The notes: generated by a model from the sequence alone, not told the origin. A DNA stretch of 64,000 bases from Spirochaetales bacterium (GCA_016839055.1 JAEKNX010000002.1:377451-441450), one strand, 5' to 3'; shown: positions 10,228 through 60,979, counted from the first letter of the stretch. Translations and numbers: made by a program.

Positions 10228-10289
10228 TACGTTGTATATAAATATTGGCAATCAATTATATGCTTCCTCGGGGAATCGGGGTATTTTAC

Positions 10290-21658: not shown

Positions 21659-21770
21659 TTACTTCCTCCTAAAAATTATACACCTGATCATACATAAAAA
21701 CACGAGATTTTCAAGCAGGTGATTTGGGGCAAATTGAATCAGAATGTAAAAAATAGATTTATATAAGGGT

Positions 21771-23279: not shown

Positions 23280-23417
23280 TCCCTGAGGCAGAAATGGACA
23301 ATCTACCAAAAGTCGGAAAAAAGTCAAATTAAAACATTGATAAATACGGAAATTAGGTTTACAATCATCAATAATTTAGAAAAGTATTGTAGAGTTTACG
23401 CAAACAGGAGCGAAGAA

Positions 23418-44460: not shown

Positions 44461-46328
44461 GAAATTGCCCTCCAGTAATCAATATCAGTATGAGGCAGAA
44501 ACATGGCTTTTTTGAATTCCTCGACGTAATCATCGGCTCCGAGCAAATCATAATAGGTTGTTGCGCTGCGTATTCTTGTAAGTTCATTGAAGGCTTCCTG
44601 ATAGAAGGCTGCCAATTTTGCTCCCTTGATGGATGTGTTACCGGAAAATTTAAATTTATCCAGAGGCAGAGGCGGCAGAAGCCCGATATTTATTGCATTT
44701 TCAATATTGAGATAATAGCCGAAGGCTCCTGCAATGTAGAAAGTATCGAGATCACTGAATTTTAGTGATAAACGCTGCATTATGATGGTGATGGCCGCAA
44801 AAATAGCAGCCTTGGCGGTTATAATATTTTCAATGTCCTTTTCTGTAAGATAAATACTGTTATCCTCTTGGTTAGTTTCTTCAACCAAAACAAAACGCCT
44901 TTTATTGGCTTCACCTGTTTCTGAGGTTCGGTTCTCATCGATGAACCGGCCGGAGCGATCAATAATCTTTTCATTAAGAAGGACACTCAAGAGATCTATG
45001 ATACCGGAGCCGCAAATTCCGATTGGTGGCTGCTTATTTATTGTCGAATACTTAATAATACCGGATTCGACAAAAACCTTATCCACGGCACCCGGTTCAG
45101 CACGCATGCCGCATTCGACACTTGCTCCTTCCAGCGCCGGTCCTGCGGAAGCCGAGGTGGCTACCAGCCAATCTCTGTTTCCGAGAATCACTTCCCCATT
45201 TGTCCCTATGTCTATGAGGAGCCCAAGCTCTTTCTTTTTGTACATTTGAACTGCCAGAATTCCGGCGGTCAGATCACTTCCTACCCAGCCGCTGATGCCG
45301 GGAAGTGAATAAAGCAGGCCGCGCTTGTTGACCTTCAATCCTACTTCGGAAGCCCGGAGTGGGGGCGGTTCGACGGTTACGGGGATAAATGGCTTACGTC
45401 GGATATTATTGGTCGAAAGATCAAGCAGGAAATGCTCCATAGCGGTATTCCCGGCACAGACAACAGCGTTAATATTCTTAATGTCCACATTGTTTCTTTC
45501 GCACAGCATAACGATTAGTCTGTTGATATCATCCACAAGTAATTTCTGCAGCACTTTTACACTTTTTCGTTCCGCGTGGATCATTCGGCCTGTGACCTCA
45601 CTCCCGTGAATCGATTGACTGTTGTAACATGATGCTGAATCGACAGTGGTTCTGGGATGTGCATTGACCAGATGGGCAACCACTGTGGTGGTTCCCATAT
45701 CTACAATAACCATATAGTTCGATGATTCTGTGTCGCCGCCTTCGATATTCATGATCTCGGCGATGTCTCTGCGCAGCCCCACTGTAATGGTTACTTTGTA
45801 ATTATTGTTACGGAGAACCTTCGGCAGTATTTTTATTATTTTCAGTCCCATCTGCATGGTAGGTATATTAAGACGTTTTTTTACGCCGTTTGAAACCAGT
45901 TGATGATCAGCCTGGCCCGAAAAGATAGTAGGCGGTTCAAATTCAATATAAATTTTAGTAACAACCGGGAGGGTTTTATAATGCAGCTCATTGATGTGAG
46001 GTTTATCTTCTTCGCCGAAATTTTCCGAGACTGGAGTGCTGTTGCCTTCTCCCCGGTGTTTTTTTGGTATCTCTACTGTCAGATCTTTATACACAAGGCT
46101 CAAACAGGCCAGCACCCATCCTTTTTTAATCTGAGCTTCATTAAAAGGCCATGAAACCTTGTCCGGAATATCTCCTTCTAAAATGATCATTTTGCATTTA
46201 CCGCATATTCCCTCACCGCCGCAGTTAGTATTCACCTCCAGGCCGGCTTTGCGGGCGGCTTCCAAAAGGGAAGTGCCGCTGCGTACGCTGACTGACTTGT
46301 TCGAAGGATAGAATTTAACTGAATGCAT
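44457..46328 (-). CDS. Reductive activator of corrinoid protein (RACo/AcsV-like). N-terminal plant-type [2Fe-2S] ferredoxin domain plus an ASKHA ATPase domain (DUF4445).
   Basis: N-terminal ...NCGGEGICGKCK... [2Fe-2S] ferredoxin motif. About 620 aa. The start ATG at 46328 overlaps the acsC stop (TAATG) and has a GGGGGA RBS. Confidence 0.7.
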   Translation of the reverse strand: MHSVKFYPSNKSVSVRSGTSLLEAARKAGLEVNTNCGGEGICGKCKMIILEGDIPDKVSWPFNEAQIKKGWVLACLSLVYKDLTVEIPKKHRGEGNSTPVSENFGEEDKPHINELHYKTLPVVTKIYIEFEPPTIFSGQADHQLVSNGVKKRLNIPTMQMGLKIIKILPKVLRNNNYKVTITVGLRRDIAEIMNIEGGDTESSNYMVIVDMGTTTVVAHLVNAHPRTTVDSASCYNSQSIHGSEVTGRMIHAERKSVKVLQKLLVDDINRLIVMLCERNNVDIKNINAVVCAGNTAMEHFLLDLSTNNIRRKPFIPVTVEPPPLRASEVGLKVNKRGLLYSLPGISGWVGSDLTAGILAVQMYKKKELGLLIDIGTNGEVILGNRDWLVATSASAGPALEGASVECGMRAEPGAVDKVFVESGIIKYSTINKQPPIGICGSGIIDLLSVLLNEKIIDRSGRFIDENRTSETGEANKRRFVLVEETNQEDNSIYLTEKDIENIITAKAAIFAAITIIMQRLSLKFSDLDTFYIAGAFGYYLNIENAINIGLLPPLPLDKFKFSGNTSIKGAKLAAFYQEAFNELTRIRSATTYYDLLGADDYVEEFKKAMFLPHTDIDYWRAIS

Positions 46329-47665
46329 TATTTCCCCCAAATTCTATTCAGAAATCCCGGAATCTCTTTTGCCGTTTCAGGACCTATTATTACCTCCTTC
46401 CATTCAGAGAGGTCTTCAATTTCCGCCTTGAAAACCGGCAGAAGCCCCGGAATGATCAGTTTTCGGTGTTTTACTTTTTCAGCAACCTTCTGGTCTTTGA
46501 GAGCCTTTAATATCTTTTCGACTGATATTTTGTCACCCGCCCAGGAGTTGAGCACTCCGAGACCCTCGGTTTCAACAACACAGATATAGGATGGTATTTT
46601 ACTTCTTTCCACTTCACCGGCTACACTGAAGTAGGTGAGGGAAAAGTTCGTTGTATACATTACCGGAGAGTTTTCATTGGGACTGCCGATTTCGTATAAT
46701 TTTGCTTCCACAGTATTGGGTACCTGTGGGTCGGTATATATGTCCTGAATAATAGTCAGATTGGGTGTCACCTGCCAGGCTTCCCGGCCCTTGATTAGTA
46801 CAATTCCGGAATATTTTGCCGCTGCCGCCGCAATTAAGACAGTCTCTATTTCTTCCGAATCACTTTCGAATTCACTGATTATCGGATAGCCGAAGGGACG
46901 GAATTTATTAATCAGGGCCGACCGTCTTACATGGGTTGAAAATCTGACAGCCTCTCCGATGTTCCCGCCCTTGAAGGAAAGAAGCATGTCTTCAACCCCG
47001 GCATCCTTTGCCTTGAGCGTGAAGTCGGCCAATTCTTCTAAGGTTCCGGCCGAGACTGCAAGGGGAAGTTTATTATCAGCCGCTATTTTAATAAAGTCAT
47101 CAATATTAGCGGCGGTCGCCCGGTATATAAGCGGCCTCTTGTCTTTAATGGCCGCTGCCGCCGTACTCATGGGAAGAGGATCTTCACCGGAGAGAATAAT
47201 CGGCAGACGGCTTTTATCTGCGGCGGTTTGTGCTCTTTCGGCCGGATTGCTGCAACCGTCCAGATCTATGGCACAGAACTCAACTTTTATTTCCTTGCCG
47301 ACCCTCGTGAAATTCCGGCTGTTTATCTCGTCTATACCACTTTCTAGTTCAGCAATAGAAAGATTGGCGGCAAGCTTGACGGCAAGGCCGCATTTTCGGT
47401 GAAACTTTTCTTCATGGCGATACATTACAGTTTCCTGGCCTGTTTCGAAGACTGTATCTCCGGATCCTATCTTCACCAGTTTCATGGGAGGTGAGGATTG
47501 CTCAGAAAGAGCCACTGTGGCTTCTTCAGAAATATCCGGGCAATCTGAGATTGCCTTCTGCTTCGCGGCAACCTGCATTGCAAAGGCCATACAGGTGGGA
47601 AAACCACATTTCTTACAGTTTGTCCTTGGAAGCTGTTTGTAGATTTGCATTCCTGTCAGTGCCAT
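46328..47665 (-). CDS. acsC: Corrinoid iron-sulfur protein large subunit.
   Basis: N-terminal [4Fe-4S] motif (CKKCGFPTCMAF...C). TIM-barrel plus C-terminal B12-binding region. 445 aa. Confidence 0.85.
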   Translation of the reverse strand: MALTGMQIYKQLPRTNCKKCGFPTCMAFAMQVAAKQKAISDCPDISEEATVALSEQSSPPMKLVKIGSGDTVFETGQETVMYRHEEKFHRKCGLAVKLAANLSIAELESGIDEINSRNFTRVGKEIKVEFCAIDLDGCSNPAERAQTAADKSRLPIILSGEDPLPMSTAAAAIKDKRPLIYRATAANIDDFIKIAADNKLPLAVSAGTLEELADFTLKAKDAGVEDMLLSFKGGNIGEAVRFSTHVRRSALINKFRPFGYPIISEFESDSEEIETVLIAAAAAKYSGIVLIKGREAWQVTPNLTIIQDIYTDPQVPNTVEAKLYEIGSPNENSPVMYTTNFSLTYFSVAGEVERSKIPSYICVVETEGLGVLNSWAGDKISVEKILKALKDQKVAEKVKHRKLIIPGLLPVFKAEIEDLSEWKEVIIGPETAKEIPGFLNRIWGK

Positions 47666-47695: not shown

Positions 47696-49912
47696 TTAGA
47701 ACATTTCATCCATTTCAAGAGCCGGGTGAGAAACCTTTTCAAGGAAGGTGACGAGCTCATCCGGTTCTTCGGCATCTTCCTCGGTGGCTATTTTCTCAAA
47801 TAAGTCCGTCAGGCCGTTGCTTTTGAGTCTTTCTTCCAGACGCGGGCCGATTTCATCTTTAAGCTGCTTGCTCATCCAGACGATACGCTGGTGTCCCCCT
47901 TCCGCAGAAATGAATTTATTACTGCTTATGTAGAGTTTACCTATGCCGATAAATCCTGGCACCTGAAGCCCTCCGCCTACCTGACCTGCCAGGGTTGAGA
48001 AGGTCATTCCAATTGGAGTCATACCTGTAAAATCCCGGTCAACAATCATAATCCCGTTTGCTTCCGGGACAATGGCCGCGATGCACTCGAAACAGCCGCA
48101 GGAGGTCATGGGATCTTCCATTATTGAATAAGCATTGAATTTGGCCAGTGTATTATTTGATTTTACTTTGATATAACTGTTGATGCCATCCCACTGTCCC
48201 TTAATCGGATCGATACTATTGCCTTTATTAACCGGCTCGTTTGGCCCATGTTTGTTTATCTGATAGGAAGCTTTGCTGTCCAGCCATGTATAGGCACCGC
48301 AGAGCCCGAGTCTTTCCGGAGTAATTATGCAGACATGATTGGGGGCATAGGACTGACACAGGGTACAGGAGTAAAACTGGTCCACATCTTCATCGGTCAT
48401 TCCGCCTATGCGGTCATCCCTGTCGGCATAGACCTCCCTGGCAATTTTATGAAGCTCTTCCACCTTGGCAGCATCGGTATAGAATTTTATCTGGACCCTG
48501 TCAACGATGGTTGAAAACTCATTATGCATGCGGGCCAGGATGATCTCGCCGAAATCCCTGACGGTGAATCCTTTTGATTGTGCATCCTTACTGATTCTGA
48601 GCCAGATAATGGCCCGCTGACCCATGTGGAATATTCCATTGGCACAGGAGATGAATTCATGCATTCTACGCTCAAGAACAGTCTCAAAGTCTTCCTGGAA
48701 CTCACGGCCGGCAACTTCCACCATCATTGCCAGCGGGTAGGCTTCTCCTTCCTTCATCTCATCTATTTCAGGTCCGATAATTTCTATCTTTCCGTCTTCC
48801 ACCTCAGAGAGAGGTTTCATCCGCAGCAGTTCGAAAGCCTCGGAGAATTTGCCGCCGAACTGTACATACATGTCTTCTTTTCGCACCCGCTCACCCTCAA
48901 AGCCGGCACCGTAAGGTACTGGTATTGGGATGTTTTCCACCTTGACTGTCAGGTCGCGCAGTTCTATTGCCCGGCCGATTATTTCATCGAGTTTAATTCC
49001 GGATATTACATGCTCAAAGTTGCATATTCCCGTGGGCAGTATTTCCGGAATATTTACATCGGAAATGACCGGGAACCCGAAGTTTATAGCTCCGGCGGCG
49101 GTGGCATATTTTTCATCGGTGATCAGCTGATCCTTTCCGGCGTCCTTGTCCGAACCTAAGGCCATGACAAAGGCGTGCACCCGGTCGTTGTTGTACATCA
49201 GAATTTCTCTGGTCGCTTTGGCGCTTCCTGCCTCAATGCCTCCGAAGGTCATGGCAGAGCGGGCGGCGAAATTGAGAGCATGTATTGCGGCTGTTATATC
49301 TTTGCCGAAGGGGACGAGAAAGGTGTCCCAGTTCATTTCAATTCTTTCTTCGGCCAGTTGTTCAGCAATTGATCGTCCATTGGTATTACCGGCAATAAAA
49401 ACGAGAATGTTTTTTTCCTGCAGTTCCCTGACAAGCTTTACCGCCTGAGCATTTGTTTCGGTGCAGCCTACTATCGCTGCAAATCCGGGCATTCTGCCGT
49501 CAACAAGTTTAATACCCTGAGAACGAAGAATATTGTCGCCTGAAAATCCCAGCCAGATGTCGTCGACGGAAGCTGCGCCGTTTAAATATTTAAGTGATTC
49601 GATAATTTCCTCTGCAATCAGGGTTGCGACACCCGAATCCAGGGTTTCACCGAGGTAGGGCAGCCATGTTTTTTCAGCAGGAATGGTTCCAAGCAGGCTG
49701 CGGGCCTCCTGGAGGGAAGACTCAAGATCCCCGAGCTGTTTTACCTTCTGCCCCAGAAACAGATACATAATGGGCAGGAAGTAAGCAGTATTGGGATAGG
49801 CTACAATGGATTCTTTCCCGTATTTTTTGACTGCTGTTTCCAGAGCTTCCGAGGCTCTGTCTACCATTTGGTGAGCTCCTCTTATAGCTGCCGTCGCAAT
49901 TATTTTAGACAT
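47696..49912 (-). CDS. acsB: Acetyl-CoA synthase catalytic subunit (A-cluster).
   Basis: 738 aa. Cys-Gly-Cys bridging motif (SCGCFEC) and upstream Cys residues for the [4Fe-4S] cluster. Typical length. Confidence 0.9.
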   Translation of the reverse strand: MSKIIATAAIRGAHQMVDRASEALETAVKKYGKESIVAYPNTAYFLPIMYLFLGQKVKQLGDLESSLQEARSLLGTIPAEKTWLPYLGETLDSGVATLIAEEIIESLKYLNGAASVDDIWLGFSGDNILRSQGIKLVDGRMPGFAAIVGCTETNAQAVKLVRELQEKNILVFIAGNTNGRSIAEQLAEERIEMNWDTFLVPFGKDITAAIHALNFAARSAMTFGGIEAGSAKATREILMYNNDRVHAFVMALGSDKDAGKDQLITDEKYATAAGAINFGFPVISDVNIPEILPTGICNFEHVISGIKLDEIIGRAIELRDLTVKVENIPIPVPYGAGFEGERVRKEDMYVQFGGKFSEAFELLRMKPLSEVEDGKIEIIGPEIDEMKEGEAYPLAMMVEVAGREFQEDFETVLERRMHEFISCANGIFHMGQRAIIWLRISKDAQSKGFTVRDFGEIILARMHNEFSTIVDRVQIKFYTDAAKVEELHKIAREVYADRDDRIGGMTDEDVDQFYSCTLCQSYAPNHVCIITPERLGLCGAYTWLDSKASYQINKHGPNEPVNKGNSIDPIKGQWDGINSYIKVKSNNTLAKFNAYSIMEDPMTSCGCFECIAAIVPEANGIMIVDRDFTGMTPIGMTFSTLAGQVGGGLQVPGFIGIGKLYISSNKFISAEGGHQRIVWMSKQLKDEIGPRLEERLKSNGLTDLFEKIATEEDAEEPDELVTFLEKVSHPALEMDEMF

Positions 49913-49969: not shown

Positions 49970-50821
49970 TTATCCTGTCTCCTTGCTGGTCAATCGATTA
50001 TAATCGGAAACATCGGACAGCCCCTTTGCTGTCCGATGTAAAACGGTTCTGACTGAATAATTTTTCTTTCTTCTACAGGCCGGACAACAGGAGAGAAGTT
50101 CATCTGTTATAGTAATTTTTTCCTTAAGCTGTTCCATCTGGACGGATGTTCCGACCGGCTGCCCGCAATCGGGGCAAAATATCATCTCCAGGGCAACGCC
50201 CCAGTCTTGCTTCCTGAGTTTTTTATTTTCAATCTTGAAATTTATCACGCCTGTAGGACACACCGCCTCACAGGCCTTGCAGCCTATGCAGAGATCTCCT
50301 GCGATTTTAAAGGGGGAGACCACCTCCTTTTTTATGCCGCGTCCTGAGAACCCTATGGCCTCGGCCTTTATCAGTTCATTGCAGACTCTCATGCATAACC
50401 CGCATAGAATACAGTTCGATTTTCCCTCATCAGCAGCAGTGAAACGGGGCTTGGTTATTCCGTTTTCAAGTGCCAGTTTCATTATCTGCTGAGAATCCGG
50501 AGCCCTGGATAGCAGCAGTTCTATTATCAGTTTTCTCTCTTTGAGAACTCTCGGAGAATGTGTTTTTATATTCAGCCCCTCGGATGCGGGGCAGACACAG
50601 GCCGAATCTATCCAGCTGCGGTCAGGGTTTTGAGAGGGGTTGCTGATTTCCACTATACACAGCCTGCAGGAGCCGCTAGGGCTAAGCTCTTCATGGTGGC
50701 AGAGTGTTGGTATCCTTATCTCCAGCATGGCGGCCGCTTTTAAGATTGTAGTTCCTTGCGGAACACGGATTTTCCTGCCGTCAATTATTATTTCAACCTG
50801 CTTTGTGACCGTCATTTTCAA
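49970..50821 (-). CDS. [2Fe-2S]/[4Fe-4S] electron-transfer protein resembling the N-terminal domain of NuoG/HydA. No catalytic domain.
   Basis: N-terminal plant-type 2Fe-2S (CHHEELSPSGSCRLC). Two CxxCxxCxxxCP ferredoxin motifs. An extra C-terminal CPDC...CCPAC Cys4 motif. Confidence 0.7.
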   Translation of the reverse strand: MKMTVTKQVEIIIDGRKIRVPQGTTILKAAAMLEIRIPTLCHHEELSPSGSCRLCIVEISNPSQNPDRSWIDSACVCPASEGLNIKTHSPRVLKERKLIIELLLSRAPDSQQIMKLALENGITKPRFTAADEGKSNCILCGLCMRVCNELIKAEAIGFSGRGIKKEVVSPFKIAGDLCIGCKACEAVCPTGVINFKIENKKLRKQDWGVALEMIFCPDCGQPVGTSVQMEQLKEKITITDELLSCCPACRRKKNYSVRTVLHRTAKGLSDVSDYNRLTSKETG

Positions 50822-52659
50822 ACCTTCTTCACTGCGTCAAACCTGCAGACTTCAAAACATATGCCGCATTTCACACATTTCGCTGTATCTATGGTGTGAA
50901 CCTCTTTTTTCCGCCCTTCGATGGCTTGATATGGACATTTCACCTGGCAGAGCATGCAGCCGGTACATTTTTCATTGTCAATTTTATATTGAAAAAGGCT
51001 GCGGCAGACACCGGGGCTGCACTTTTTATCGACAATATGCTCCATATACTCATCCTTGAAGTAACGCAGGGTACTTAAGACCGGATTAGGTGCTGTTTTT
51101 CCTAGGGCACAGAGAGAGCTGTCCTTCACCATTTCTCCTATCTCCTCGAGGGCCGCCAAATCTTCTTCTTTTCCTTTGCCCTCAGTTATCCGGGTGAGAA
51201 TGGAAAGAAGCTGCCACAGGCCTTCCCTGCAGGGAGTGCATTTACCGCAGGATTCTTCGACGAGGAAGGACAGATAGAATCTCGCTACTTCCACCATGCA
51301 GGTGTCCTCGTCCATCACGATAAGACCTCCGGATCCCATCATCGAGCCGAGGCTTGTGAGTTCATCGAAATCTACCGACCTGTCAAGATACTGCCCGGGG
51401 ATGCAGCCGCCCGAAGGTCCTCCTGTCTGGATTGCCTTGAACTCCCGGCCGCCTGGAATCCCGCCTCCGATATCGAATACAATCTCACGGAGAGACATTC
51501 CCATCGGAACCTCAATGAGTCCGGTGTTCCTGACTTTGCCGACGAGCGAGAAGATCTTTGTGCCCTTGCTGCCCGGGGTTCCGATCTTATTGAACCAGGC
51601 GGCGCCCCGGTTAATGATGATTGGAATATTAGCCCAGGTTTCGACATTGTTCAGGTTGGTCGGCAGGTTGTAAAGGCCGCTTTCGGTGGTGTGAATGTGC
51701 TTTGTGCGGGGCTCGCCGCTGTAACCCTGCAGAGACTGCATCAGCGCGGTTGACTCACCGCAGACGAAGGCTCCGCCTCCTTTTGTTACTTCAATGTCGA
51801 AGGATAACTCCGATCCGAGAATTTTCTCACCGAGCAGGCCCCATTTTCTGGCATCGGCTATCGCCTTGATAATGTTTTCAACTGCAAGCGGATATTCGGC
51901 ACGGACATAGATTCGGCCTTCCCTGGCGCCGATCGCAAAGGCTCCGATTAGCATTCCTTCAATAACCGAGTGAGGGTTGCCCTCCAGCAGGGATCTATCC
52001 ATATAGGCTCCGGGATCTCCTTCATCCGCGTTGCAGACAACGTATTTCGAGCTGCCTGGGGCAATGCGGCAGGACTTCCATTTCTTGCCTGTCGGGAAAC
52101 CTCCGCCGCCCCGTCCGCGGAGGCCGGATTTTTCCACCTCTCCGATCACTTCTTCCGGGCTCAGATCCGATAGAACCCTTGTCAAAGCGGAATAGCCGCC
52201 CGTGATTATATAATCCTCTATGCTTTTTGGATCGATATGACCGTTCTGGGCGAATACCAGCCTTTGCTGTTTCTCATAAAAAGGAATATCGTTTTCTTTT
52301 ATCAGTTTACGGCCGGTTTCTGGATCTTCATACAGGAGGCGTTCGATCACTTCTCCGTTTTTAAGGGATTTCTCTACTATTTCATCAATATCAGACGGCT
52401 GGATGCGCTGGTAAAAAATATTTTCAGGCCTGATAACCATTAAGGGCCCGTTTTCACACAGGCCGTGGCAGCCGGTTTCCTTGATTGTGATATCGATATT
52501 TTTTTCAGTAACGGTCTTCCGGAGCAGGACCAGCAGTTTTTCCGATTCGCTGGCCCGGCAGCCGGTTCCGCCGCAGAGGGATACTGTCCGGAGAGTAGAT
52601 TTTTTCTCAGTAAGATGAGTCCTTACCGAAACAAGCTGTTCGTTTCCTGTCAGTTTCAT
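50818..52659 (-). CDS. NuoF/HydB-like NAD(P)H-binding FMN flavoprotein subunit with an N-terminal thioredoxin-like [2Fe-2S] domain and C-terminal 2x[4Fe-4S].
   Basis: GGGGFPTGKKW FMN-site motif. 51-kDa-subunit profile. C-terminal CTGCMLCQVKCP and CVKCGICFEVC clusters. ATGA overlaps with both neighbours. Confidence 0.8.
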   Translation of the reverse strand: MKLTGNEQLVSVRTHLTEKKSTLRTVSLCGGTGCRASESEKLLVLLRKTVTEKNIDITIKETGCHGLCENGPLMVIRPENIFYQRIQPSDIDEIVEKSLKNGEVIERLLYEDPETGRKLIKENDIPFYEKQQRLVFAQNGHIDPKSIEDYIITGGYSALTRVLSDLSPEEVIGEVEKSGLRGRGGGGFPTGKKWKSCRIAPGSSKYVVCNADEGDPGAYMDRSLLEGNPHSVIEGMLIGAFAIGAREGRIYVRAEYPLAVENIIKAIADARKWGLLGEKILGSELSFDIEVTKGGGAFVCGESTALMQSLQGYSGEPRTKHIHTTESGLYNLPTNLNNVETWANIPIIINRGAAWFNKIGTPGSKGTKIFSLVGKVRNTGLIEVPMGMSLREIVFDIGGGIPGGREFKAIQTGGPSGGCIPGQYLDRSVDFDELTSLGSMMGSGGLIVMDEDTCMVEVARFYLSFLVEESCGKCTPCREGLWQLLSILTRITEGKGKEEDLAALEEIGEMVKDSSLCALGKTAPNPVLSTLRYFKDEYMEHIVDKKCSPGVCRSLFQYKIDNEKCTGCMLCQVKCPYQAIEGRKKEVHTIDTAKCVKCGICFEVCRFDAVKKV

Positions 52660-53108
52660 TGCGAGGTGAACTCCTGAAAGATTTTCTCTACCTTGGCCGG
52701 GGTTATATGTCCGTTGTATTTTTTATTAATAACCATTATTGGACCCAGGGCGCAGGCTCCCAGACAATTAACTGTCTCGAGGGAAAAACTGCCGTCTGCG
52801 CTGGTTTCTCCATTTTTAATACCCAGGCTGCGTTCAATTTCCTCCAGTATCCGCCCTGCACCGCGGACGTGACAGGCAGAACCCATGCAGACTTTGACGA
52901 TATTGCGTCCCTTGGGTTTGAGTGAGAAAACATTATAGAAGGTGGCCACCGAATAGACATGATGAAGGGGCAGACTTAAGCCTGCTGCTACTTTTTTGAT
53001 ACTGTCTTCGGAAAGAAAATTGAACTCTTCCTGTATTTCCTGTAGAATCGGAATCAATGATTCCGGCGTCAGGGGGAAATCAGCTATAATCTTTCCTACT
53101 TTTTTCAC
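52656..53108 (-). CDS. NuoE/HydC-like thioredoxin-fold [2Fe-2S] subunit.
   Basis: 150 aa. CMGSACHVRG ... CLGACALGP cysteine pattern of the 24-kDa subunit family. Confidence 0.75.
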   Translation of the reverse strand: MKKVGKIIADFPLTPESLIPILQEIQEEFNFLSEDSIKKVAAGLSLPLHHVYSVATFYNVFSLKPKGRNIVKVCMGSACHVRGAGRILEEIERSLGIKNGETSADGSFSLETVNCLGACALGPIMVINKKYNGHITPAKVEKIFQEFTSQ

Positions 53109-53111
53109 TCT

Positions 53112-53642
53112 TTATTTCTCCAATGCCTCGCTCTGCACCATGGATACTCTGAATTTGCTTATAACTTCCTTTCTTCTGTCCGCCGTGATATCTTCAACAC
53201 TGGTGAAGCGGATGGCTTTAGTGGGGCAGGCGGCGGCACAGGCGGGTATTTTCCCTTCTTCCAGTCTGTCTATACATAGATCACATTTTGATAATGATAT
53301 TGCCTGCGGAACTGCCTTTATTATTCCGAAGGGACAGACCATCACGCAGGCATTGCATCCGATGCATTTATCCATGTTTAATACAACCGGTTCGTCCGGC
53401 CCGCTTCTATCCATGGCAGCTGTTGGACAGACTGTAATGCAGGGGGCGTCGGTGCAGTGACGGCAGTGCATCGGGATAACATCATCGCCGTCTGTTTCGA
53501 GAATAATCCTGGGGTAGAGACGTTCGCTGCTGTAGAGCGCTTCTACAAGAGTATTGCTTTTTGAGTGAGCCAGGGCGCATTCGAGTTCACATGTGTGACA
53601 ACCCTGACATCTGCTGATAACTACCTCAATTATACTGTTCAT
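53112..53642 (-). CDS. cooF: CooF-type iron-sulfur electron-transfer protein (4x[4Fe-4S]).
   Basis: 176 aa with four CxxCxxCxxxCP-type motifs. Lies immediately downstream of cooS. Confidence 0.75.
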   Translation of the reverse strand: MNSIIEVVISRCQGCHTCELECALAHSKSNTLVEALYSSERLYPRIILETDGDDVIPMHCRHCTDAPCITVCPTAAMDRSGPDEPVVLNMDKCIGCNACVMVCPFGIIKAVPQAISLSKCDLCIDRLEEGKIPACAAACPTKAIRFTSVEDITADRRKEVISKFRVSMVQSEALEK

Positions 53643-53646
53643 ACTA

Positions 53647-55572
53647 TCACTCCTGGTCCAGCACCTTTAGTGCCTGCTCATAGACCATGGGTTTGAGCTT
53701 AAGGAGTTTTCTTTTTTTATCGATGTGTCTGATCATTTTATGAGCGGCTTTGACGGGATCCTCTTCAAAGGCCCATTTGCCGCCGACTTCTGCTTCGATT
53801 TCATCGGTAAGGTAATTAAACATTTTTTTGCTGCCCATCATCGGAAGAGGCTTGCCTATCATGGTATATACACCCGAGGCTACAAAATAGAAACCGATTG
53901 AAACGGCTTTTTCACTCATCCATTCCGGCGCGGCGCCGGCCGCCGGCAGATCGGAGATGTCATTTCCAAGACCGCCTTCGGCTACGATATTGGACAGAAC
54001 CCGCAGGATGCGGCTGTTATCCACACATGAACCCATGTGCAGCACCGGAGGAATGCCAACTGTACGGCAGATTTCCTGCAGACCCTTTCCCGCGTATTTA
54101 AAAGCTGATTCTGGCTGCAGCAGTCCGTGCTTCGCACAGGATATGGCATTGCAGCCGGTGACAACCACCAGTACATCGTTTTTAATCAGTTCCTTGACCA
54201 TCTGGATATGGCCGCTTTCGTAAGGCACATTCGGATTTGAGCAGCCGATAACGCCCGCGGCTCCCCTCAGGCGGCCTTCTTTGATAGCGTTGTTCAGCGG
54301 CCGGTAGGTGGCCCTGTATTTTCCGCCGAGAAAATCAAATACCGATTCGGCGGTAAAACCCGCTACCATCGGCTCTTTCTCCGACGGCAGATAGACAGAT
54401 TCTTTATTTCGTCTGGAATAATTGTCTATAGCAATCTCTATTATCTCTTTGGAGGTCTTAATCGCGTCTGTCTCATGGAATTCTATATGCTTCACTCCGG
54501 GAATCTTTGCCTTATCCGAAGTTGTCACGAGTTCGGTATGAAAACAATCCGCTACTGCCTTAAGGCCGGGCATTATACACTGCACATCGACAATCATCAT
54601 GTCGACGACTCCTGTCATGATCGCGAGTTCCTGCTGCAGAAAACTACCGGCAACCGGAATTCCTCGTCTCATCAGAATTTCATTGGCTGTACAGCATATT
54701 CCAGCTATGTTTATCCCTGTAGCTCCTGCATCCTTTGCCTTTTTATCCATCTCATCAGAGGTGGCTATCTCGGCTATGATGTCGGAGAGGGCAGGTTCAT
54801 GACCGTGTACAATAACGTTTATTTTAGCTTCATCCATAACACCGAGGTTGGCGCTTGATTTCAGGGGGTTAGGTGTACCGTACAGAATGTCTTGAAGTTC
54901 AGTGGCCACCATTGACCCGCCCCAGCCGTCGGCGAGGGACGTCCTCATTCCATGATTTATCAGATGACGGTATTCGGCATCCACTCCCATATGGGTACGG
55001 TGCATGGTTTCGACAACTTCTCTGTCGATGCTGCGGGGCATAATGTTTAGTTCTTTCCATAGTTTTATTCTGGTTTCCGGAGCGGTTCCTGCTGTCTTTA
55101 GAAATCCATCCTGCCGGCCGAATTCATTTTTTGCTTCGCTTACCAGGTCGAGTGCTATCTCTTTTGCGCTTCGATCTTTTGTTTTTAAGCCGTAGATCTC
55201 GGCGACTGCCCTTAGTTTTGCTTCATCTTTGATTTTGTATGCTGAATCTCCTTCGGCTGCCATCTGAAGAGTATGAACAACGGTTCGGCCGTGATCCGAG
55301 TGGGCGGCAGCACCGGCGGCGATCATACGGCAGAGATGCCGGGCCGCAATGGTATCTGCGTCGGCTCCGCAAACTCCCACCTGGGGCCCATCCCCGAATG
55401 GATCAATTCGGCAGGGCCCCATGGAGCAGTGCCGGCAGCATAAACCAAGCTGCCCGAACCCGCACTGGGGCTGCATGGCCTCGAACCTGTCCCAGACTGT
55501 CTGCATATTCTCTTTTGCGGCAAATTTAATCATTTTTTGAGTGGCTTCATCGGAAAACGAATGGTCCATCAT
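53647..55572 (-). CDS. cooS: Ni,Fe carbon monoxide dehydrogenase catalytic subunit.
   Basis: 641 aa. N-terminal CGFGQLGLCCRHCSMGPCRI D/B-cluster motif. CODH/prismane-fold profile. Confidence 0.9.
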   Translation of the reverse strand: MMDHSFSDEATQKMIKFAAKENMQTVWDRFEAMQPQCGFGQLGLCCRHCSMGPCRIDPFGDGPQVGVCGADADTIAARHLCRMIAAGAAAHSDHGRTVVHTLQMAAEGDSAYKIKDEAKLRAVAEIYGLKTKDRSAKEIALDLVSEAKNEFGRQDGFLKTAGTAPETRIKLWKELNIMPRSIDREVVETMHRTHMGVDAEYRHLINHGMRTSLADGWGGSMVATELQDILYGTPNPLKSSANLGVMDEAKINVIVHGHEPALSDIIAEIATSDEMDKKAKDAGATGINIAGICCTANEILMRRGIPVAGSFLQQELAIMTGVVDMMIVDVQCIMPGLKAVADCFHTELVTTSDKAKIPGVKHIEFHETDAIKTSKEIIEIAIDNYSRRNKESVYLPSEKEPMVAGFTAESVFDFLGGKYRATYRPLNNAIKEGRLRGAAGVIGCSNPNVPYESGHIQMVKELIKNDVLVVVTGCNAISCAKHGLLQPESAFKYAGKGLQEICRTVGIPPVLHMGSCVDNSRILRVLSNIVAEGGLGNDISDLPAAGAAPEWMSEKAVSIGFYFVASGVYTMIGKPLPMMGSKKMFNYLTDEIEAEVGGKWAFEEDPVKAAHKMIRHIDKKRKLLKLKPMVYEQALKVLDQE

Positions 55573-55766: not shown

Positions 55767-56552
55767 TCAGTTTTTAGAGGTTATTTTGCTGATTTCTGTT
55801 AAAATCTGATTGAACTCCTCAAGGGAACCTTCTGTCAGTGCATCCAGAATTGAGACCCCTGGTCTGTCGGCCTTCCGGAACTCCTCCCTGAAGGAGATAA
55901 ATCCGAGTATTTTCGCATCGGGCAGGGCTTTTTTTATGAATTCCCGGTCATCCTGCTCCTTTATTTTATTGCCGACAACATAAACTCTCAATAGACCGAT
56001 TTCTCCAGATAGCTCAAATATTTTTCGGGCACATTCAATCGACATCTGTCCCGGTTCGACGACGACCAGCATTATATCGACTCCGCCTGCCGTTGCTCTG
56101 CCGAGATGTTCGATCCCCGCCTCCATGTCCAGGAGTAATGTCTCATCCTTATGCAGAATAAGGTCCCGGACCAAAGCCCGGAGCAGAACGTTTTCAGGAC
56201 AGGCGCAGCCGCCCCCGCCTCTGCGGATTGCTCCGAGGACCAGAAGGGAGATTCCCCTGTAGAGGGTTGCGTAGGTATCACTGATATCCGATACTTCGGG
56301 GTTCAGTTTAAACATCTGGCCGTATTGATTGACCTTAGCCCCTGTACGCTCTTCAATCAGTTCTGTCTGTTTCGATATGGGAATGATCTTATCCTGCATT
56401 TCACGGGGCATCCCCAGAGCTGCGGCCAGGTTAGCGTCGGGATCGGCATCAATGGCAAGCACCTTGTTTCCCTTTTCAGTTAAAAGAAGGGCCAGGGCGG
56501 AGGAGATAGTCGACTTTCCGACGCCGCCTTTTCCAGTGATCGCTATTTTCAT
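55767..56552 (-). CDS. cooC: CooC-type CODH nickel-insertion ATPase (second paralog).
   Basis: Walker A (GKGGVGKST). 261 aa. Directly upstream of cooS. Confidence 0.8.
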   Translation of the reverse strand: MKIAITGKGGVGKSTISSALALLLTEKGNKVLAIDADPDANLAAALGMPREMQDKIIPISKQTELIEERTGAKVNQYGQMFKLNPEVSDISDTYATLYRGISLLVLGAIRRGGGGCACPENVLLRALVRDLILHKDETLLLDMEAGIEHLGRATAGGVDIMLVVVEPGQMSIECARKIFELSGEIGLLRVYVVGNKIKEQDDREFIKKALPDAKILGFISFREEFRKADRPGVSILDALTEGSLEEFNQILTEISKITSKN

Positions 56553-56627
56553 TTTCTCCTCCTTTTTGCTCTTGTTTCATTATAAGTCACTGATTAAATA
56601 TTTCTCAAGGAAAATCGTTTTTAATAA

Positions 56628-57672: not shown

Positions 57673-58248
57673 TTAATAAATTGTATTAATAATGCGCTGA
57701 AAATCCTTTTGAGAGTTAATATTGACAAATGAGCTGTAATCAGGGTCCAGGCTGCGGATAATATCATCTTCAGCGTACTTTACCCGGACATACTCATAGA
57801 ATGAAATTATCCGCCGTTTCGGAAGAGTTTTTTCGATGAAAGGAATACAGCTTTTACGGTAGGCCGCGAACAGGGGTTCGGTATAGCCTCCGTGGTGAGG
57901 AACGTGCGCATCGTAATCTCCGATTTTCTTCACAAGCCAGGCCACGAGGGCGGGACTCATGAAAGGCGAATCTACAGTCGTTACAAAATTTATATTCGAA
58001 CTGCTTTCCCTCAGCCCGCTGTAGAGACCCATGAGCGGACCCTGTCCCGGTTTTTCATCGGTGATGATGCGGGCGGGGATGTTTCGGTAGGCTTCGGTTT
58101 TATTTACTACTACTATTATCTCTTTGAACATTGGGGATAGCTGTCTAATTTTGCGCTCAATAAAGGGTTCGCCTTCAATTGTCAAAAAGGCTTTATCAAG
58201 GCCGCCTATTCTCTCTCCATTGCCGCCTGACAGGATGATACAGGTCAT
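57673..58248 (-). CDS. mobA: Molybdenum cofactor guanylyltransferase.
   Basis: N-terminal ILSGGNGERIGGLDKAF nucleotide-binding motif. 191 aa. Start/stop junction with fdhA. Confidence 0.7.
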   Translation of the reverse strand: MTCIILSGGNGERIGGLDKAFLTIEGEPFIERKIRQLSPMFKEIIVVVNKTEAYRNIPARIITDEKPGQGPLMGLYSGLRESSSNINFVTTVDSPFMSPALVAWLVKKIGDYDAHVPHHGGYTEPLFAAYRKSCIPFIEKTLPKRRIISFYEYVRVKYAEDDIIRSLDPDYSSFVNINSQKDFQRIINTIY

Positions 58249-60965: not shown

Positions 60966-60979
60966 CCTTAAACAAAAAT

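What the first reader, a model, noticed from the sequence alone, without database searches (positions are those of the whole stretch)
49970..55572. A NuoE/NuoF/NuoG-N-like flavoprotein module sits between cooS-cooF and acsB: a candidate NAD(P)H-linked or electron-bifurcating CO dehydrogenase
Three subunits of the 24-kDa/51-kDa/NuoG-N-terminal type are translationally coupled directly after cooS-cooF and before acsB. The same trio forms the NAD(H)/ferredoxin-bifurcating core of HydABC hydrogenases and Hyt/Fdh formate dehydrogenases. No hydrogenase H-cluster domain is present: the NuoG-like ORF stops after its FeS domain at 283 aa.

The simplest reading is that the CODH donates to or accepts from this flavin module via CooF. 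That would give a CO:NAD(P)+ (plus ferredoxin) oxidoreductase physically integrated with ACS. CODH/ACS is classically ferredoxin-linked, so a dedicated bifurcating/confurcating partner inside the operon would be an unusual wiring.
Basis: inference. Interest (0 to 1): 0.8.

Follow-up and report, generated by a model that had tools for sequence, protein, structure and literature searches.

The report
Bifurcating-type flavoprotein module wired into CODH/ACS
A spirochaete's acetyl-CoA synthase operon carries, between its CO dehydrogenase and the synthase gene, a three-subunit flavin/iron-sulfur module of the type that splits electrons between NAD and ferredoxin; this enzyme type has been proposed in the literature but never purified, and here it sits inside the carbon-fixation machinery itself.

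Summary
On the minus strand, cooS, cooF and three NuoE/F/G-N-like genes are translationally coupled (gaps -4 to +4 nt). They lie 57 nt upstream of acsB in a 12-gene acs operon.

The trio is not a complex I N-module. It meets every sequence criterion of the Bfu (HydABC-type) electron-bifurcating family. The small subunit is a "Type 2" BfuA: it lacks the His-ligated cluster and has a C-terminal zinc finger plus helix. Its closest solved structure is WorA of the bifurcating aldehyde oxidoreductase WorABCSL (PDB 9MQX). CooF is the homologue of WorS, the polyferredoxin that WorA docks.

The most likely function is a CooS-CooF-BfuABC complex that couples CO2/CO to NAD(H) plus ferredoxin.

The idea is not new. 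"Codh-Bfu"/"CodhABCSF" was proposed from genomes in 2022 and 2025, but for stand-alone CODHs in Firmicutes, and it has never been purified.

What I did not find discussed is the ACS-integrated form. It recurs here, with varying gene order, in Spirochaetota, Fibrobacterota, Firestonebacteria, Planctomycetota and, as a divergent form, Bathyarchaeia. A second Bfu core with a formate dehydrogenase lies 3 kb upstream.

Function is inferred; no biochemistry exists.

The parts
56579..56608 (-). Best sigma-70-like promoter match (TTGAGA-18-TATAAT, 11/12) upstream of cooC1; candidate operon promoter
   Evidence: This is a consensus match only; the region's promoter-like count is only about 2 sd above shuffles (33 found, 24.2 +/- 4.2 expected).
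55767..56552 (-). cooC1, Ni-insertion ATPase (CbiA/ParA family, 261 aa)
   Evidence: The same position is conserved in L081-L084.
53647..55572 (-). cooS, Ni,Fe-CO dehydrogenase catalytic subunit (641 aa); the only CODH gene in the operon
   Evidence: TIGR01702 686 bits. Best PDB matches: 6T7J (Thermococcus AM4 CODH2) 734 bits, C. autoethanogenum ACS-bound CODH 637 bits, Moorella AcsA 507 bits. The Cys positions match, from my memory of C. hydrogenoformans CODH-II numbering, the D-, B- and C-cluster ligands.
53112..53642 (-). cooF, polyferredoxin with 16 Cys in four [4Fe-4S] motifs (176 aa); WorS/HycB homologue and proposed wire between CooS and BfuA
   Evidence: Fer4_11. Matches 9mqx_E (WorS) at E 8e-20 over residues 4-164. 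K158/V160/F164 align with WorS K143/F145/F149 of the C-terminal docking helix.
52656..53108 (-). bfuC (NuoE/HydC-like, 150 aa), C1 [2Fe-2S] with Cys 74, 79, 115, 119
   Evidence: PF01257 173 bits. Best PDB matches are HydC of T. kivui (E 1e-42) and of the NiFe-HydABCSL complex. Cys positions.
50818..52659 (-). bfuB (HydB-type NuoF, 613 aa), with these cofactor sites:
- FMN/NAD site (GLRGRGG 179, ADEGDPG 211)
- B5 [2Fe-2S]: C29/34/64/68
- B1 [4Fe-4S]: C471/474/477/517
- B2 site: C454/T492/H541/C547/C552
- B3/B4 2x[4Fe-4S]: C565-C605
   Evidence: Matches 771 bits to 9mqx_B (WorB), 764 bits to 7t2r_B and 757 bits to 8a6t_B, all full length.
49970..50815 (-). bfuA, Type 2 (WorA-like, 281 aa):
- A1 [2Fe-2S]: C39/50/53/73
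- A2 and A4 [4Fe-4S]: C135-145 and C176-186
- no His-ligated A3 cluster
- C-terminal 4-Cys zinc finger: C214/217/244/247
- C-terminal helix
   Evidence: 9mqx_A, E 5e-47, full length; AF2 mean pLDDT 82.7; helix 245-280, low confidence beyond about residue 250; Foldseek top hit 9mqx_A, target-normalised TM-score 0.85.
47696..49912 (-). acsB, acetyl-CoA synthase (738 aa), with the N-terminal CODH-contact domain
   Evidence: NF040764 1007 bits; PF18537, PF03598, PF19436.
46328..47665 (-). acsC, corrinoid Fe-S protein large subunit
   Evidence: NF003195 489 bits.
44457..46340 (-). acsV/RACo, corrinoid reductive activase
   Evidence: RACo domains; NF040756 554 bits, below its cutoff of 800.
43693..44460 (-). 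cooC2/acsF-type P-loop maturation ATPase
   Evidence: CbiA family.
42759..43706 (-). acsD, corrinoid Fe-S protein small subunit
   Evidence: NF003376 333 bits.
41963..42745 (-). acsE, methyltransferase (pterin-binding)
   Evidence: PF00809.
58248..63317 (-). Paralogous second Bfu set, a Type 1 Fdh-Bfu. It is not part of the CODH module but is the internal control for it.
- fdhC: 62838-63317
- fdhB: 60980-62845
- fdhA: 58248-60965, with the full A1-A4 N-terminus including PF10588, plus the molybdopterin domain
   Evidence: Identities: BfuB/FdhB 52%, BfuC/FdhC 40%, BfuA/FdhA N-terminus 29%.

Best explanation
The five genes most likely encode one complex, CooS2-CooF-BfuA-BfuB-BfuC. This is a 'Codh-Bfu'/'CodhABCSF' enzyme built like the solved aldehyde oxidoreductase WorABC(SL)3.

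The proposed electron path is:
1. CO2/CO turnover at the CooS C-cluster, then the CooS B- and D-clusters.
2. The four [4Fe-4S] clusters of CooF.
3. Cluster A4 of BfuA. CooF is held there by BfuA's C-terminal zinc finger and helix.
4. A2, then A1, then B1 and the FMN of BfuB.

At the BfuBC core the electron pairs are split or merged between NAD(H) at the FMN and ferredoxin at the C-terminal B3/B4 domain. The stoichiometry is 2 CO + 2 H2O + NAD+ + Fd(ox) <-> 2 CO2 + NADH + Fd(red)2- + 3 H+.

The module sits inside the acs operon, and CooS is the only CODH encoded there. The same CooS therefore probably also feeds CO to AcsB. In the acetogenic direction the carbonyl branch would then take half of its electrons from NADH (confurcation) rather than all from reduced ferredoxin.

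Shown: gene content, coupling, cofactor motifs, homology to solved bifurcating complexes, and conserved synteny.
Inferred: complex formation, bifurcation, direction of flux, and the link to ACS.
For: 1. Domain assignments and tight coupling; no terminator-like site before acsB.

2. BfuB carries every feature that PMC9304861 uses to separate bifurcating BfuB from non-bifurcating NuoF homologues. These are the N-terminal 2Fe-2S, the C-terminal 2x[4Fe-4S], and the B2-site ligands including the conserved His (C454, T492, H541, C547, C552). It aligns full length at 757-771 bits with WorB and with two HydB subunits of biochemically proven bifurcating enzymes.

3. BfuA has the Type 2 cluster set (A1, A2, A4, no A3). 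Its four C-terminal Cys are invariant in 14 homologues. Its best sequence and fold match is WorA, 9mqx_A, and a helix is predicted after the zinc finger.

4. CooF aligns end to end with WorS, including the docking-helix positions. In 9MQX the WorA helix recruits WorS and puts clusters S4 and A4 10.7 A apart.

5. Partner specificity:
- In 36 loci with this BfuA type, the neighbour is CODH and/or ACS (13 loci), POR or WOR.
- BfuA sequences largely separate by partner type in a neighbour-joining tree; the CODH/ACS-linked ones fall in more than one group.
- The post-zinc-finger tail is 10-34 aa where a CooF/WorS homologue is present and 1-6 aa in most POR-linked loci. This is what PMC12318220 reports.

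6. The window holds a separate BfuBC pair for its FDH, so each CO2 reductase has its own core.

7. The bfuCBA adjacency to cooS and/or acsB persists with different gene orders:
- Spirochaetota: L001, L068, L081-L083
- Fibrobacterota: L084
- Firestonebacteria: L002, L034
- Phycisphaerae/Pirellulales: L014, L030, L048, L050
- Bathyarchaeia: L016, a divergent case; its BfuA-like ORF is 473 aa with a non-zinc-finger C-terminus

8. AcsB keeps the N-terminal CODH-contact domain PF18537.
Against: - No Codh-Bfu has been purified or assayed (PMC12318220).
- CO (E0' -520 mV) can reduce both NAD+ and ferredoxin without any coupling. A bifurcating mechanism is therefore not obviously needed, a point PMC9304861 itself raises.
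- In the reductive direction, NADH plus Fd (mean about -390 mV) cannot drive CO2 to free CO unless CO activity is held about 10^4-fold below that of CO2 (my Nernst estimate).
- CooS is most similar to a stand-alone CODH (6T7J) rather than to Moorella AcsA.
- Four genes separate cooS from acsB.
- Whether the genome holds another ACS-dedicated CODH cannot be seen from a 64-kb window.
- The SLBB match is below Pfam's gathering score (23.9 against 27).
- The C-terminal helix of the model has low confidence beyond about residue 250.
- Stand-alone Codh-Bfu loci without acsB also exist (L019, L029), so ACS is not an obligatory partner of the module.
Confidence: 0.6

Rival explanations
1. A real CooS-CooF-BfuABC complex that is independent of ACS. 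It would be a stand-alone CO-oxidising or CO-scavenging enzyme, as proposed for Firmicutes Codh-Bfu, that merely shares the operon. AcsB would be served by another CODH or by this CooS only loosely.
For: - Stand-alone loci exist with no acsB within the fetched flanks (L019, L029).
- CooS is closest to the stand-alone Thermococcus CODH2.
- PMC9304861 proposes CO scavenging at very low CO as the rationale.
Against: - CooS is the only CODH in a 12-gene acs operon that otherwise contains every CODH/ACS component.
- AcsB retains the CODH-contact N-terminal domain.
- In Phycisphaerae the order is bfuB-bfuA-cooS-acsB, with cooS directly before acsB (L014, L048).
- The integrated order is conserved down to 44% BfuA identity.
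Confidence: 0.15
2. A non-bifurcating NAD(P)H-linked CODH. All electrons would pass between CO2/CO and the pyridine nucleotide, and the extra clusters of BfuB would play no energetic role. This would be functionally like the CooS-CooF-FAD/NAD oxidoreductase clusters of clostridia.
For: - CO oxidation is exergonic with NAD+ alone (potentials).
- The NAD/FMN motifs are intact.
Against: - Characterised non-bifurcating homologues lack the B2-B5 clusters (PMC9304861). This protein has them all, including the His that is missing in non-bifurcating homologues.
- The closest solved relatives are all bifurcating enzymes.
Confidence: 0.1
3. BfuABC, with CooF, is a separate soluble redox-balancing module: a ferredoxin:NAD(H) oxidoreductase or transhydrogenase-like enzyme. 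It would be co-transcribed with the Wood-Ljungdahl genes without binding the CODH.
For: - An orphan CooF-fusion + bfuCBA locus with no catalytic partner within 9 kb exists (L085).
- MAG papers have read such genes simply as an 'NADH dehydrogenase module' (PMC6305446).
Against: - Bfu enzymes as described need a third substrate delivered through BfuA.
- The BfuA docking helix co-varies with the presence of a CooF/WorS homologue.
- Translational coupling of cooS-cooF-bfuC (3-4 nt gaps) suggests co-translated, stoichiometric partners.
Confidence: 0.1
4. The module supplies low-potential electrons for reductive activation of ACS or of the corrinoid protein rather than for catalytic CO2/CO turnover.
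For: It sits in the same operon as acsV/RACo, acsC and acsD.
Against: - RACo carries its own 2Fe-2S domain.
- The same BfuA type with the same CooF-like partner occurs with CODH alone, with no ACS or corrinoid genes (L019, L029).
- Activation is sub-stoichiometric, which fits poorly with a tightly coupled five-gene block.
Confidence: 0.05

Closest known systems
WorABC(SL)3, the electron-bifurcating tungsten aldehyde oxidoreductase of Acetomicrobium mobile (PDB 9MQX; PMC12318220)
   Same: - Same five-part layout: catalytic subunit, HycB/CooF-type polyferredoxin, short Type 2 BfuA with zinc finger and C-terminal helix, BfuB, BfuC.
- It is the best sequence match for BfuA (E 5e-47) and BfuB (771 bits); for BfuC (E 5e-38) and CooF (E 8e-20) it is a clear but not top match (4th and 5th).
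- It is the best fold match for BfuA (target-normalised TM-score 0.85).
   Different: - The catalytic subunit is a Ni,Fe-CODH instead of a tungstopterin enzyme.
- The third substrate is CO2/CO.
- The module is embedded in an acetyl-CoA synthase operon.
- BfuA has a longer tail (34 aa after the zinc finger).
- Stoichiometry is unknown.
Hypothetical Codh-Bfu / CodhABCSF (PMC9304861, 2022; PMC12318220, 2025): Acetohalobium arabaticum, Clostridium cellulovorans, Sporomusa silvacetica
   Same: - bfuABC is clustered with cooS and cooF, and BfuA is Type 2.
- The same proposed reaction.
- L029 (Clostridium polyendosporum) shows the published 'CODH genes between bfuB and bfuA' order, and its BfuA groups with the window's in the tree.
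   Different: - Described from only 4 sequences, 'only in Firmicutes', as a stand-alone CO oxidiser.
- Here the order is cooS-cooF-bfuC-bfuB-bfuA, the host is a spirochaete, and the block is inserted between the CODH and acsB.
- Membership of BfuB clade 49 was not tested.
HydABC electron-bifurcating [FeFe]- and [NiFe]-hydrogenases (PDB 7T2R, 8A6T, 7Q4V, 7P5H)
   Same: BfuB and BfuC are full-length homologues with the same cofactor motifs.
   Different: BfuA has no H-cluster or A5 domain and no His-ligated A3 cluster, and there are no hydrogenase subunits.
Canonical bacterial CODH/ACS (Moorella thermoacetica AcsAB; C. autoethanogenum CODH/ACS)
   Same: acsB, acsC, acsD, acsE, acsV and cooC are all present. 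CooS scores 637 bits to the C. autoethanogenum ACS-bound CODH.
   Different: The classical enzymes use free ferredoxin and have no CooF or flavoprotein genes between the CODH and ACS genes.
Respiratory complex I N-module (NuoEFG)
   Same: Shared ancestry of all three subunits.
   Different: - NuoF-family NCBIfam scores are below their cutoffs (TIGR01959 454 against 559).
- BfuB has extra clusters.
- BfuA lacks the N5 cluster and the NuoG C-terminal domain.
- No nuoA-N genes were found among the ORFs I scanned in the window.

Membership tests
Bfu (BfuABC/HydABC-type electron-bifurcating) family, as defined in PMC9304861 | BfuB contains the Nuo51 FMN-binding domain (IPR011538) and the NuoF 4Fe-4S domain (IPR019575) | tested here: met
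   PF01512 144 bits and PF10589 115 bits. FMN/NAD motifs are at residues 179, 211 and 294.
Bfu (BfuABC/HydABC-type electron-bifurcating) family, as defined in PMC9304861 | BfuB contains the SLBB domain (IPR019554) | tested here: inconclusive
   PF10531 scores 23.9 bits (E 3.7e-5), below the gathering score of 27. The region does align without a break to solved BfuB chains.
Bfu (BfuABC/HydABC-type electron-bifurcating) family, as defined in PMC9304861 | BfuB carries the C-terminal 2x[4Fe-4S] ferredoxin domain (B3, B4; IPR017896) and the N-terminal [2Fe-2S] (B5), which non-bifurcating homologues lack | tested here: met
   Fer4 and Fer4_21 at residues 558-611 with 8 Cys; PF01257 partial match at 19-97 with C29/34/64/68.
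Bfu (BfuABC/HydABC-type electron-bifurcating) family, as defined in PMC9304861 | B2-site ligands, including the His conserved in 1550 of 1558 BfuB sequences and absent from non-bifurcating homologues | tested here: met
   C454, T492 (Thr, as in about two thirds of BfuB sequences), H541, C547 and C552 align with C438/C476/H525/C531/C536 of 7t2r_B.
Bfu (BfuABC/HydABC-type electron-bifurcating) family, as defined in PMC9304861 | BfuC is a NuoE-type [2Fe-2S] protein (IPR002023) encoded next to BfuB | tested here: met
   PF01257 173 bits; Cys 74/79/115/119; 4-nt overlap with bfuB.
Bfu (BfuABC/HydABC-type electron-bifurcating) family, as defined in PMC9304861 | Mutually dependent reduction of NAD+ and ferredoxin by the third substrate | not testable with these tools
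   This needs an enzyme assay. No Codh-Bfu has been purified.
Type 2 BfuA (WorA-like adaptor subunit) | Has clusters A1, A2 and A4 but lacks the His-ligated A3 cluster and the A5/H-cluster domain | tested here: met
   There is no PF10588 match. A 9-residue deletion replaces the HxxxCxxCxxxxxC motif relative to FdhA in the same window. The protein ends at 281 aa.
Type 2 BfuA (WorA-like adaptor subunit) | C-terminal four-Cys zinc finger followed by an alpha-helix that recruits a WorS-type polyferredoxin | tested here: met
   - C214/C217/C244/C247 are invariant in 14 homologues.
- The protein aligns to 9mqx_A through residue 254.
- AF2 predicts a helix from residue 245, with low pLDDT after about 250.
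- Foldseek target-normalised TM-score is 0.85.
- A tail is present in CODH- and WOR-linked homologues but not in most POR-linked ones.
- Metal identity and docking are not testable here.
Codh-Bfu / CodhABCSF (hypothetical enzyme of PMC9304861 and PMC12318220) | cooS and a cooF (WorS homologue) encoded in one cluster with bfuA, bfuB and bfuC | tested here: met
Codh-Bfu / CodhABCSF (hypothetical enzyme of PMC9304861 and PMC12318220) | BfuB belongs to clade 49 of the published BfuB tree | not tested
Respiratory complex I N-module (NuoE/F/G) | NuoG with the His-ligated N5 cluster and the molybdopterin-like C-terminal domain; nuoA-N genes adjacent; NuoF without extra clusters | tested here: not met
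   - No PF10588 match and no C-terminal domain.
- TIGR01959, TIGR01973 and most NuoE models score below their cutoffs; one NuoE equivalog, NF005722, just reaches its cutoff at 141.3 against 141.
- No membrane-arm genes were found among the scanned ORFs of the window.
HydABC [FeFe]-hydrogenase | H-cluster domain in the A subunit | tested here: not met
   NF040763 matches only model positions 1-214 of 571, at 128 bits against a cutoff of 765.
Bacterial CODH/ACS complex (CODH bound to AcsB) | AcsB with the N-terminal CODH-contact domain, plus a CODH encoded in the same operon | tested here: met
   PF18537 93.5 bits in AcsB. cooS is the only CODH gene in the operon.
Bacterial CODH/ACS complex (CODH bound to AcsB) | This particular CooS is the subunit that binds AcsB and channels CO to it | tested here: inconclusive
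   CooS scores 734 bits to a stand-alone CODH, 637 bits to an ACS-bound CODH and 507 bits to Moorella AcsA. The rest of the genome was not visible.

The most novel reading that the evidence does not exclude
The CODH that feeds acetyl-CoA synthase is hard-wired to a Bfu core. The carbonyl branch of the Wood-Ljungdahl pathway would then run as a confurcation, NADH + reduced ferredoxin -> 2 enzyme-bound CO, instead of being purely ferredoxin-driven.

With the Bfu-type formate dehydrogenase next door, both CO2-reducing steps of the pathway in this spirochaete would draw half their electrons from NADH. The same would hold for ACS-integrated loci in Fibrobacterota, Firestonebacteria, Planctomycetota and perhaps Bathyarchaeia.

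This would change the ferredoxin and ATP bookkeeping of acetogenesis, or of reverse acetyl-CoA oxidation, in these lineages.
Probability: 0.3. Interest if true: 0.8.

Novelty: new variant of a known kind. Interest (0 to 1): 0.55.

Why it matters
Acetogens and syntrophic acetate oxidisers live close to the thermodynamic limit, and models of their energy budgets assume that CODH/ACS consumes (or yields) only low-potential ferredoxin.

From memory of Thauer's tables (not checked here), the couple CO2 + methyl-pterin / acetyl-CoA lies near -200 mV. Ferredoxin at -500 mV would then be a large over-investment. A CODH/ACS that takes half its electrons from NADH would save reduced ferredoxin for Rnf- or Ech-type energy conservation.

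The operon found here gives a concrete, widely distributed gene set on which to test the proposed but never purified Codh-Bfu enzyme. It also allows testing of the idea from PMC9304861 that bifurcation lets low-potential substrates be handled at very low activity, which is the situation of tunnel-bound CO.

If the complex proves to be non-bifurcating or unconnected to ACS, the finding reduces to one more uncharacterised member of a catalogued family.

Tried and rejected
- Complex I N-module: rejected. There is no N5 cluster, no NuoG C-terminal domain and no nuo membrane genes, and nearly all Nuo-family NCBIfam scores are below cutoff.
- Truncated hydrogenase or pseudogene of HydA: rejected. 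The ~250-aa architecture with its invariant C-terminal CxxC...CxxC is conserved among the listed top hits of a 2030-hit search and matches a solved full-length subunit.
- Recent foreign insertion: no support. GC and GC3 of bfuCBA (0.46-0.51 and 0.48-0.57) lie within the range of the neighbouring acs genes, and the gene order is conserved in relatives.
- BfuCBA serving the upstream FDH: rejected. The FDH has its own BfuBC pair and a full-length A-type N-terminus.
- Looking up the window's own contig through P0001 failed; it is not on record. Habitat and the rest of the genome therefore stay unknown.
- Literature searches for an explicit description of a Bfu-coupled CODH/ACS found only passing notes:
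  - 'Codh-Bfu'.
  - cooS/acsB/NuoF/bifurcating.
  - Spirochaete WLP + NuoE.
  - CooS/CooF/NuoEFG.
  - Treponema primitia.
  - The passing notes are in PMC6344411 and PMC6305446.
  - The 2026 eLife CODH context survey does not mention NADH, Nuo or bifurcation.
- I did not build the BfuB tree (one search was an empty run). The BfuA neighbour-joining tree is from short sequences and should be read only coarsely.

Full report
**What is there**

The finding lies on the minus strand of the window. ORF listing and HMM scans give one 12-gene block:

| Gene | Coordinates | Size / key feature |
|---|---|---|
| cooC1 | 55767-56552 | |
| cooS | 53647-55572 | 641 aa; TIGR01702 686 bits |
| cooF | 53112-53642 | 176 aa; 16 Cys in four [4Fe-4S] motifs |
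| NuoE-like | 52656-53108 | 150 aa |
| NuoF-like | 50818-52659 | 613 aa |
| short NuoG-N-like | 49970-50815 | 281 aa |
| acsB | 47696-49912 | |
| acsC | 46328-47665 | |
| acsV/RACo | 44457-46340 | |
| cooC2 | 43693-44460 | |
| acsD | 42759-43706 | |
| acsE | 41963-42745 | |

- The gaps from cooS to the NuoG-like gene are 4, 3, -4 and 2 nt, and the gap to acsB is 57 nt.
- No terminator-like site falls in that 57-nt spacer. The best promoter-like match lies upstream of cooC1.
- GC and GC3 of the three flavoprotein-module genes lie within the range of their neighbours.
  1. The small subunit most likely starts at the ATG at 50815.

**What the three subunits are**

They are not a complex I N-module. 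The 613-aa subunit has the following sites:

- the FMN/NAD fold
- the NuoF [4Fe-4S] cluster: C471/474/477/517
- an N-terminal thioredoxin-like [2Fe-2S]: C29/34/64/68
- a C-terminal 2x[4Fe-4S] ferredoxin domain: C565-C605

Schut et al. (PMC9304861) define the Bfu (HydABC-type) electron-bifurcating family by these additions. They state that characterised non-bifurcating homologues lack them.

They also single out a B2 site whose His is present in all but 8 of 1558 BfuB sequences and absent from non-bifurcating homologues. Reading the HMMER alignment to 7t2r_B, the window protein has all five equivalent residues: C454, T492, H541, C547 and C552.

Its best PDB matches are full length:

| PDB chain | Protein | Bits |
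|---|---|---|
| 9mqx_B | WorB | 771 |
| 7t2r_B | NiFe-HydB | 764 |
| 8a6t_B | T. kivui HydB | 757 |
| 2fug_1 | Thermus Nqo1 (complex I) | 364, core only |

The NuoE-like protein has the four Cys of the C1 cluster, and its best matches are the HydC subunits of the same enzymes.

**The small subunit is the informative one**

I aligned it with the N-terminus of the formate dehydrogenase encoded 8 kb upstream in the same window.

- It has lost exactly the HxxxCxxCxxxxxC motif of the His-ligated cluster.
- It keeps the [2Fe-2S] cluster and both [4Fe-4S] clusters.
- It adds a C-terminal CxxC...CxxC. All of these Cys are invariant in 14 homologues at 40-69% identity.

This is the 'Type 2' BfuA cluster set (A1, A2, A4; no A3 or A5) of PMC9304861.

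- Its best PDB sequence hit, over its whole length, is 9mqx_A at E 5e-47.
- 9MQX is the 2025 cryo-EM structure of the electron-bifurcating tungsten aldehyde oxidoreductase WorABC(SL)3 of Acetomicrobium mobile (PMC12318220).
- An AlphaFold2 model (mean pLDDT 82.7) predicts a long helix after the four-Cys motif, with low confidence beyond about residue 250.
- Foldseek puts 9mqx_A first: target-normalised TM-score 0.85, rmsd 2.6 A.
- In 9MQX the four Cys bind zinc. The following helix recruits WorS, a HycB/CooF-type polyferredoxin, and brings cluster S4 within 10.7 A of A4.
- The window's CooF aligns end to end with WorS (9mqx_E, E 8e-20). K158/V160/F164 fall on WorS K143/F145/F149 of its own docking helix.

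**Related loci**

A pattern scan of one genome per GTDB species returned 587 confirmed relatives of the small subunit, of which the best 80 loci were kept. tblastn with the window's proteins, Pfam scans of unexplained neighbours and a neighbour-joining tree show the following.

- 36 loci have the zinc-finger type of BfuA, nearly always directly after bfuC-bfuB.
- Their partners fall into three classes:
  - CODH and/or ACS: 13 loci.
  - Pyruvate/2-oxoacid oxidoreductase: mainly Dehalococcoidia and Desulfobacterota-like MAGs.
  - Tungsten aldehyde oxidoreductase plus a WorS homologue: L047, L079.
- BfuA sequences largely separate by partner type; the CODH/ACS-linked ones fall in more than one group. 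The window's protein sits with CODH/ACS-linked ones: L001, L002, L027, L029, L034.
- The stretch after the last CxxC is 10-34 residues in CODH/ACS- and WOR-linked proteins but 1-6 residues in most POR-linked ones. Feng et al. report the same: Por-Bfu has the zinc finger but no helix and no WorS homologue.

The ACS-integrated form recurs with different gene orders:

| Lineage | Loci | Gene order |
|---|---|---|
| Three spirochaete-like relatives (51-69% BfuA identity) | L081-L083 | the window's order |
| Fibrobacterota MAG (44% BfuA identity) | L084 | the window's order |
| Phycisphaerae | L014, L048 | bfuB-bfuA-cooS-acsB-acsC-... |
| Firestonebacteria | L034 | cooS...acsB-cooF-bfuCBA-acsC |
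| Bathyarchaeia | L016 | bfuA-like...bfuC-bfuB-cdhC-cdhD-cdhE |

The Bathyarchaeia case is divergent: its BfuA-like ORF is 473 aa and has a different C-terminus.

Stand-alone cooS-cooF-bfuCBA loci without acsB also exist. They are L019 (Syntrophomonadaceae) and L029 (Clostridium polyendosporum). L029 has the 'CODH genes between bfuB and bfuA' order published for Firmicutes.

**Internal control**

Three kb upstream of cooC1 the window encodes a second, paralogous set:

- fdhC: 62838-63317
- fdhB: 60980-62845
- fdhA: 58248-60965, 905 aa, with the complete A1-A4 N-terminus (including PF10588) fused to a molybdopterin domain

This is a Type 1 Fdh-Bfu. BfuB and FdhB are 52% identical. [quoted passage not shown] That argues against the CODH-adjacent set serving the FDH or acting as a generic housekeeping module.

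**Most likely mechanism (inference)**

By homology with 9MQX, CooS2-CooF-BfuABC forms one complex. Electrons run C-cluster -> B/D clusters -> CooF (4 clusters) -> A4 -> A2 -> A1 -> B1/FMN. At the BfuBC core they are distributed between NAD(H) and ferredoxin.

The potentials tabulated in PMC9304861 are:

| Couple | E0' | E' (physiological) |
|---|---|---|
| CO2/CO | -520 mV | |
| NAD | | about -280 mV |
| Fd | | about -500 mV |

- The mean acceptor potential is about -390 mV.
- By the Nernst equation (my calculation, 29.6 mV per decade for two electrons), CO2/CO reaches -390 mV when CO activity is about 4x10^-5 that of CO2.
- Free CO at high pressure needs no bifurcation, as the authors themselves admit.
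- A very low CO activity is what is expected (my inference) for CO held in the tunnel of a CODH/ACS and drawn off, or supplied, by the A-cluster.
- The ACS-integrated arrangement is therefore the context in which a bifurcating or confurcating CODH makes the most thermodynamic sense.
- In the acetogenic direction it would halve the ferredoxin cost of the carbonyl branch.
- From memory of Thauer's tables (not checked here), the overall couple CO2 + methyl-pterin / acetyl-CoA lies near -200 mV. NADH + Fd would still leave ample driving force.

**Weaknesses**

- No Codh-Bfu has been purified.
- CooS is closer to the stand-alone Thermococcus CODH2 (6T7J, 734 bits) than to the ACS-bound CODHs of C. 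autoethanogenum (637 bits) or Moorella (507 bits).
- The rest of the genome is invisible, so another CODH could serve AcsB.
- The SLBB match is sub-threshold.
- The modelled C-terminal helix is low-confidence at its end.
- An orphan locus, a response-regulator-CooF fusion plus bfuCBA with no catalytic partner within 9 kb (L085), shows that the module is not always next to a catalytic partner.

**Comparison with the literature**

- The enzyme type was proposed as 'Codh-Bfu' from four Firmicutes sequences in 2022. It was proposed again as 'CodhABCSF' (Sporomusa silvacetica) in 2025, explicitly by analogy with WorABCSL and explicitly as unpurified.
- Inoue et al. 2019 noted COG1034/1894/1905 among the neighbours of WLP-type Ni-CODHs.
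- Suzuki et al. 2018 noted nuoEF next to CODH/ACS and FDH in an NPL-UPA2 MAG and read it as an NADH dehydrogenase module.
- A 2026 CODH context survey does not mention NADH, Nuo or bifurcation.
- In the searchable library I found no paper that describes the Bfu module as part of the acs operon or that discusses a confurcating CODH/ACS. The library misses most subscription journals, so this is absence in what I could search, not proof of absence.

**Verdict**

- Interest is 0.55. A specialist would recognise the family. The operon-level fusion with ACS across several phyla, together with a Bfu-type FDH next door, gives a testable hypothesis about the energetics of the Wood-Ljungdahl pathway.

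Noticed in passing
window 57673-63317 (-): A second, paralogous Bfu set lies just upstream of the acs operon. It comprises fdhC (159 aa), fdhB (621 aa, with the same extra clusters as BfuB) and fdhA (905 aa, full NuoG-type N-terminus including PF10588, plus a molybdopterin domain), followed by a mobA-like gene (57673-58248). Both CO2-reducing steps of the Wood-Ljungdahl pathway thus appear to be Bfu-linked in this organism.
   Followed up: partly
window 56628-57266 (+) and 40490-41110 (-): Two DUF3786 paralogues (212 and 206 aa) flank the acs operon on either side. DUF3786 genes sit at the equivalent positions in relatives L081 and L082. This suggests an uncharacterised accessory role tied to CODH/ACS.
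   Followed up: partly
window 20276-24656: Two full-length acetate kinase paralogues on opposite strands (20276-21658 on the minus strand, 23337-24656 on the plus strand) bracket a 502-aa ORF (21771-23279) with no Pfam match at E <= 1e-6.
   Followed up: no
window 8521-9723 (+): A 400-aa ORF with no Pfam match at E <= 1e-6.
   Followed up: no
L085 5563-9798: An 'orphan' module on a 1.07-Mb contig. A 335-aa fusion of a response-regulator receiver domain with a CooF-type polyferredoxin is followed by bfuC-bfuB-bfuA (zinc-finger type). There is no CODH, POR, WOR or ACS gene within 9 kb. It could be a redox-sensing or free-standing use of the module.
   Followed up: no
L016 5104-15888 (Bathyarchaeia MAG): An archaeal cdh cluster contains, in order: a 784-aa ORF (probably CdhA, not scanned), a 473-aa BfuA-like ORF with a different C-terminus, bfuC, bfuB, and then cdhC/cdhD/cdhE homologues. 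The Bfu-ACS link may extend to archaea.
   Followed up: partly
L005, L006, L008, L011, L021, L022, L023, L044, L073 (mostly about 5000-10750 in each locus): The same zinc-finger BfuA family follows POR alpha/beta-like genes (POR_N/PFOR_II and TPP_enzyme_C, scanned in L005 and L073) plus bfuC-bfuB in Dehalococcoidia and other MAGs. These BfuA proteins mostly end 1-6 residues after the zinc finger, so they lack the docking helix.
   Followed up: partly
L081 1-3408 (-); L082 2135-3697; L084 1477-3257: In relatives the acs/bfu operon is preceded by methylene-THF reductase genes (MTHFR, DUF5981/MetV). In L081 it is also preceded by an HdrA-like 810-aa protein plus FlpD. In the window that position is taken by the Bfu-type FDH instead.
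   Followed up: no
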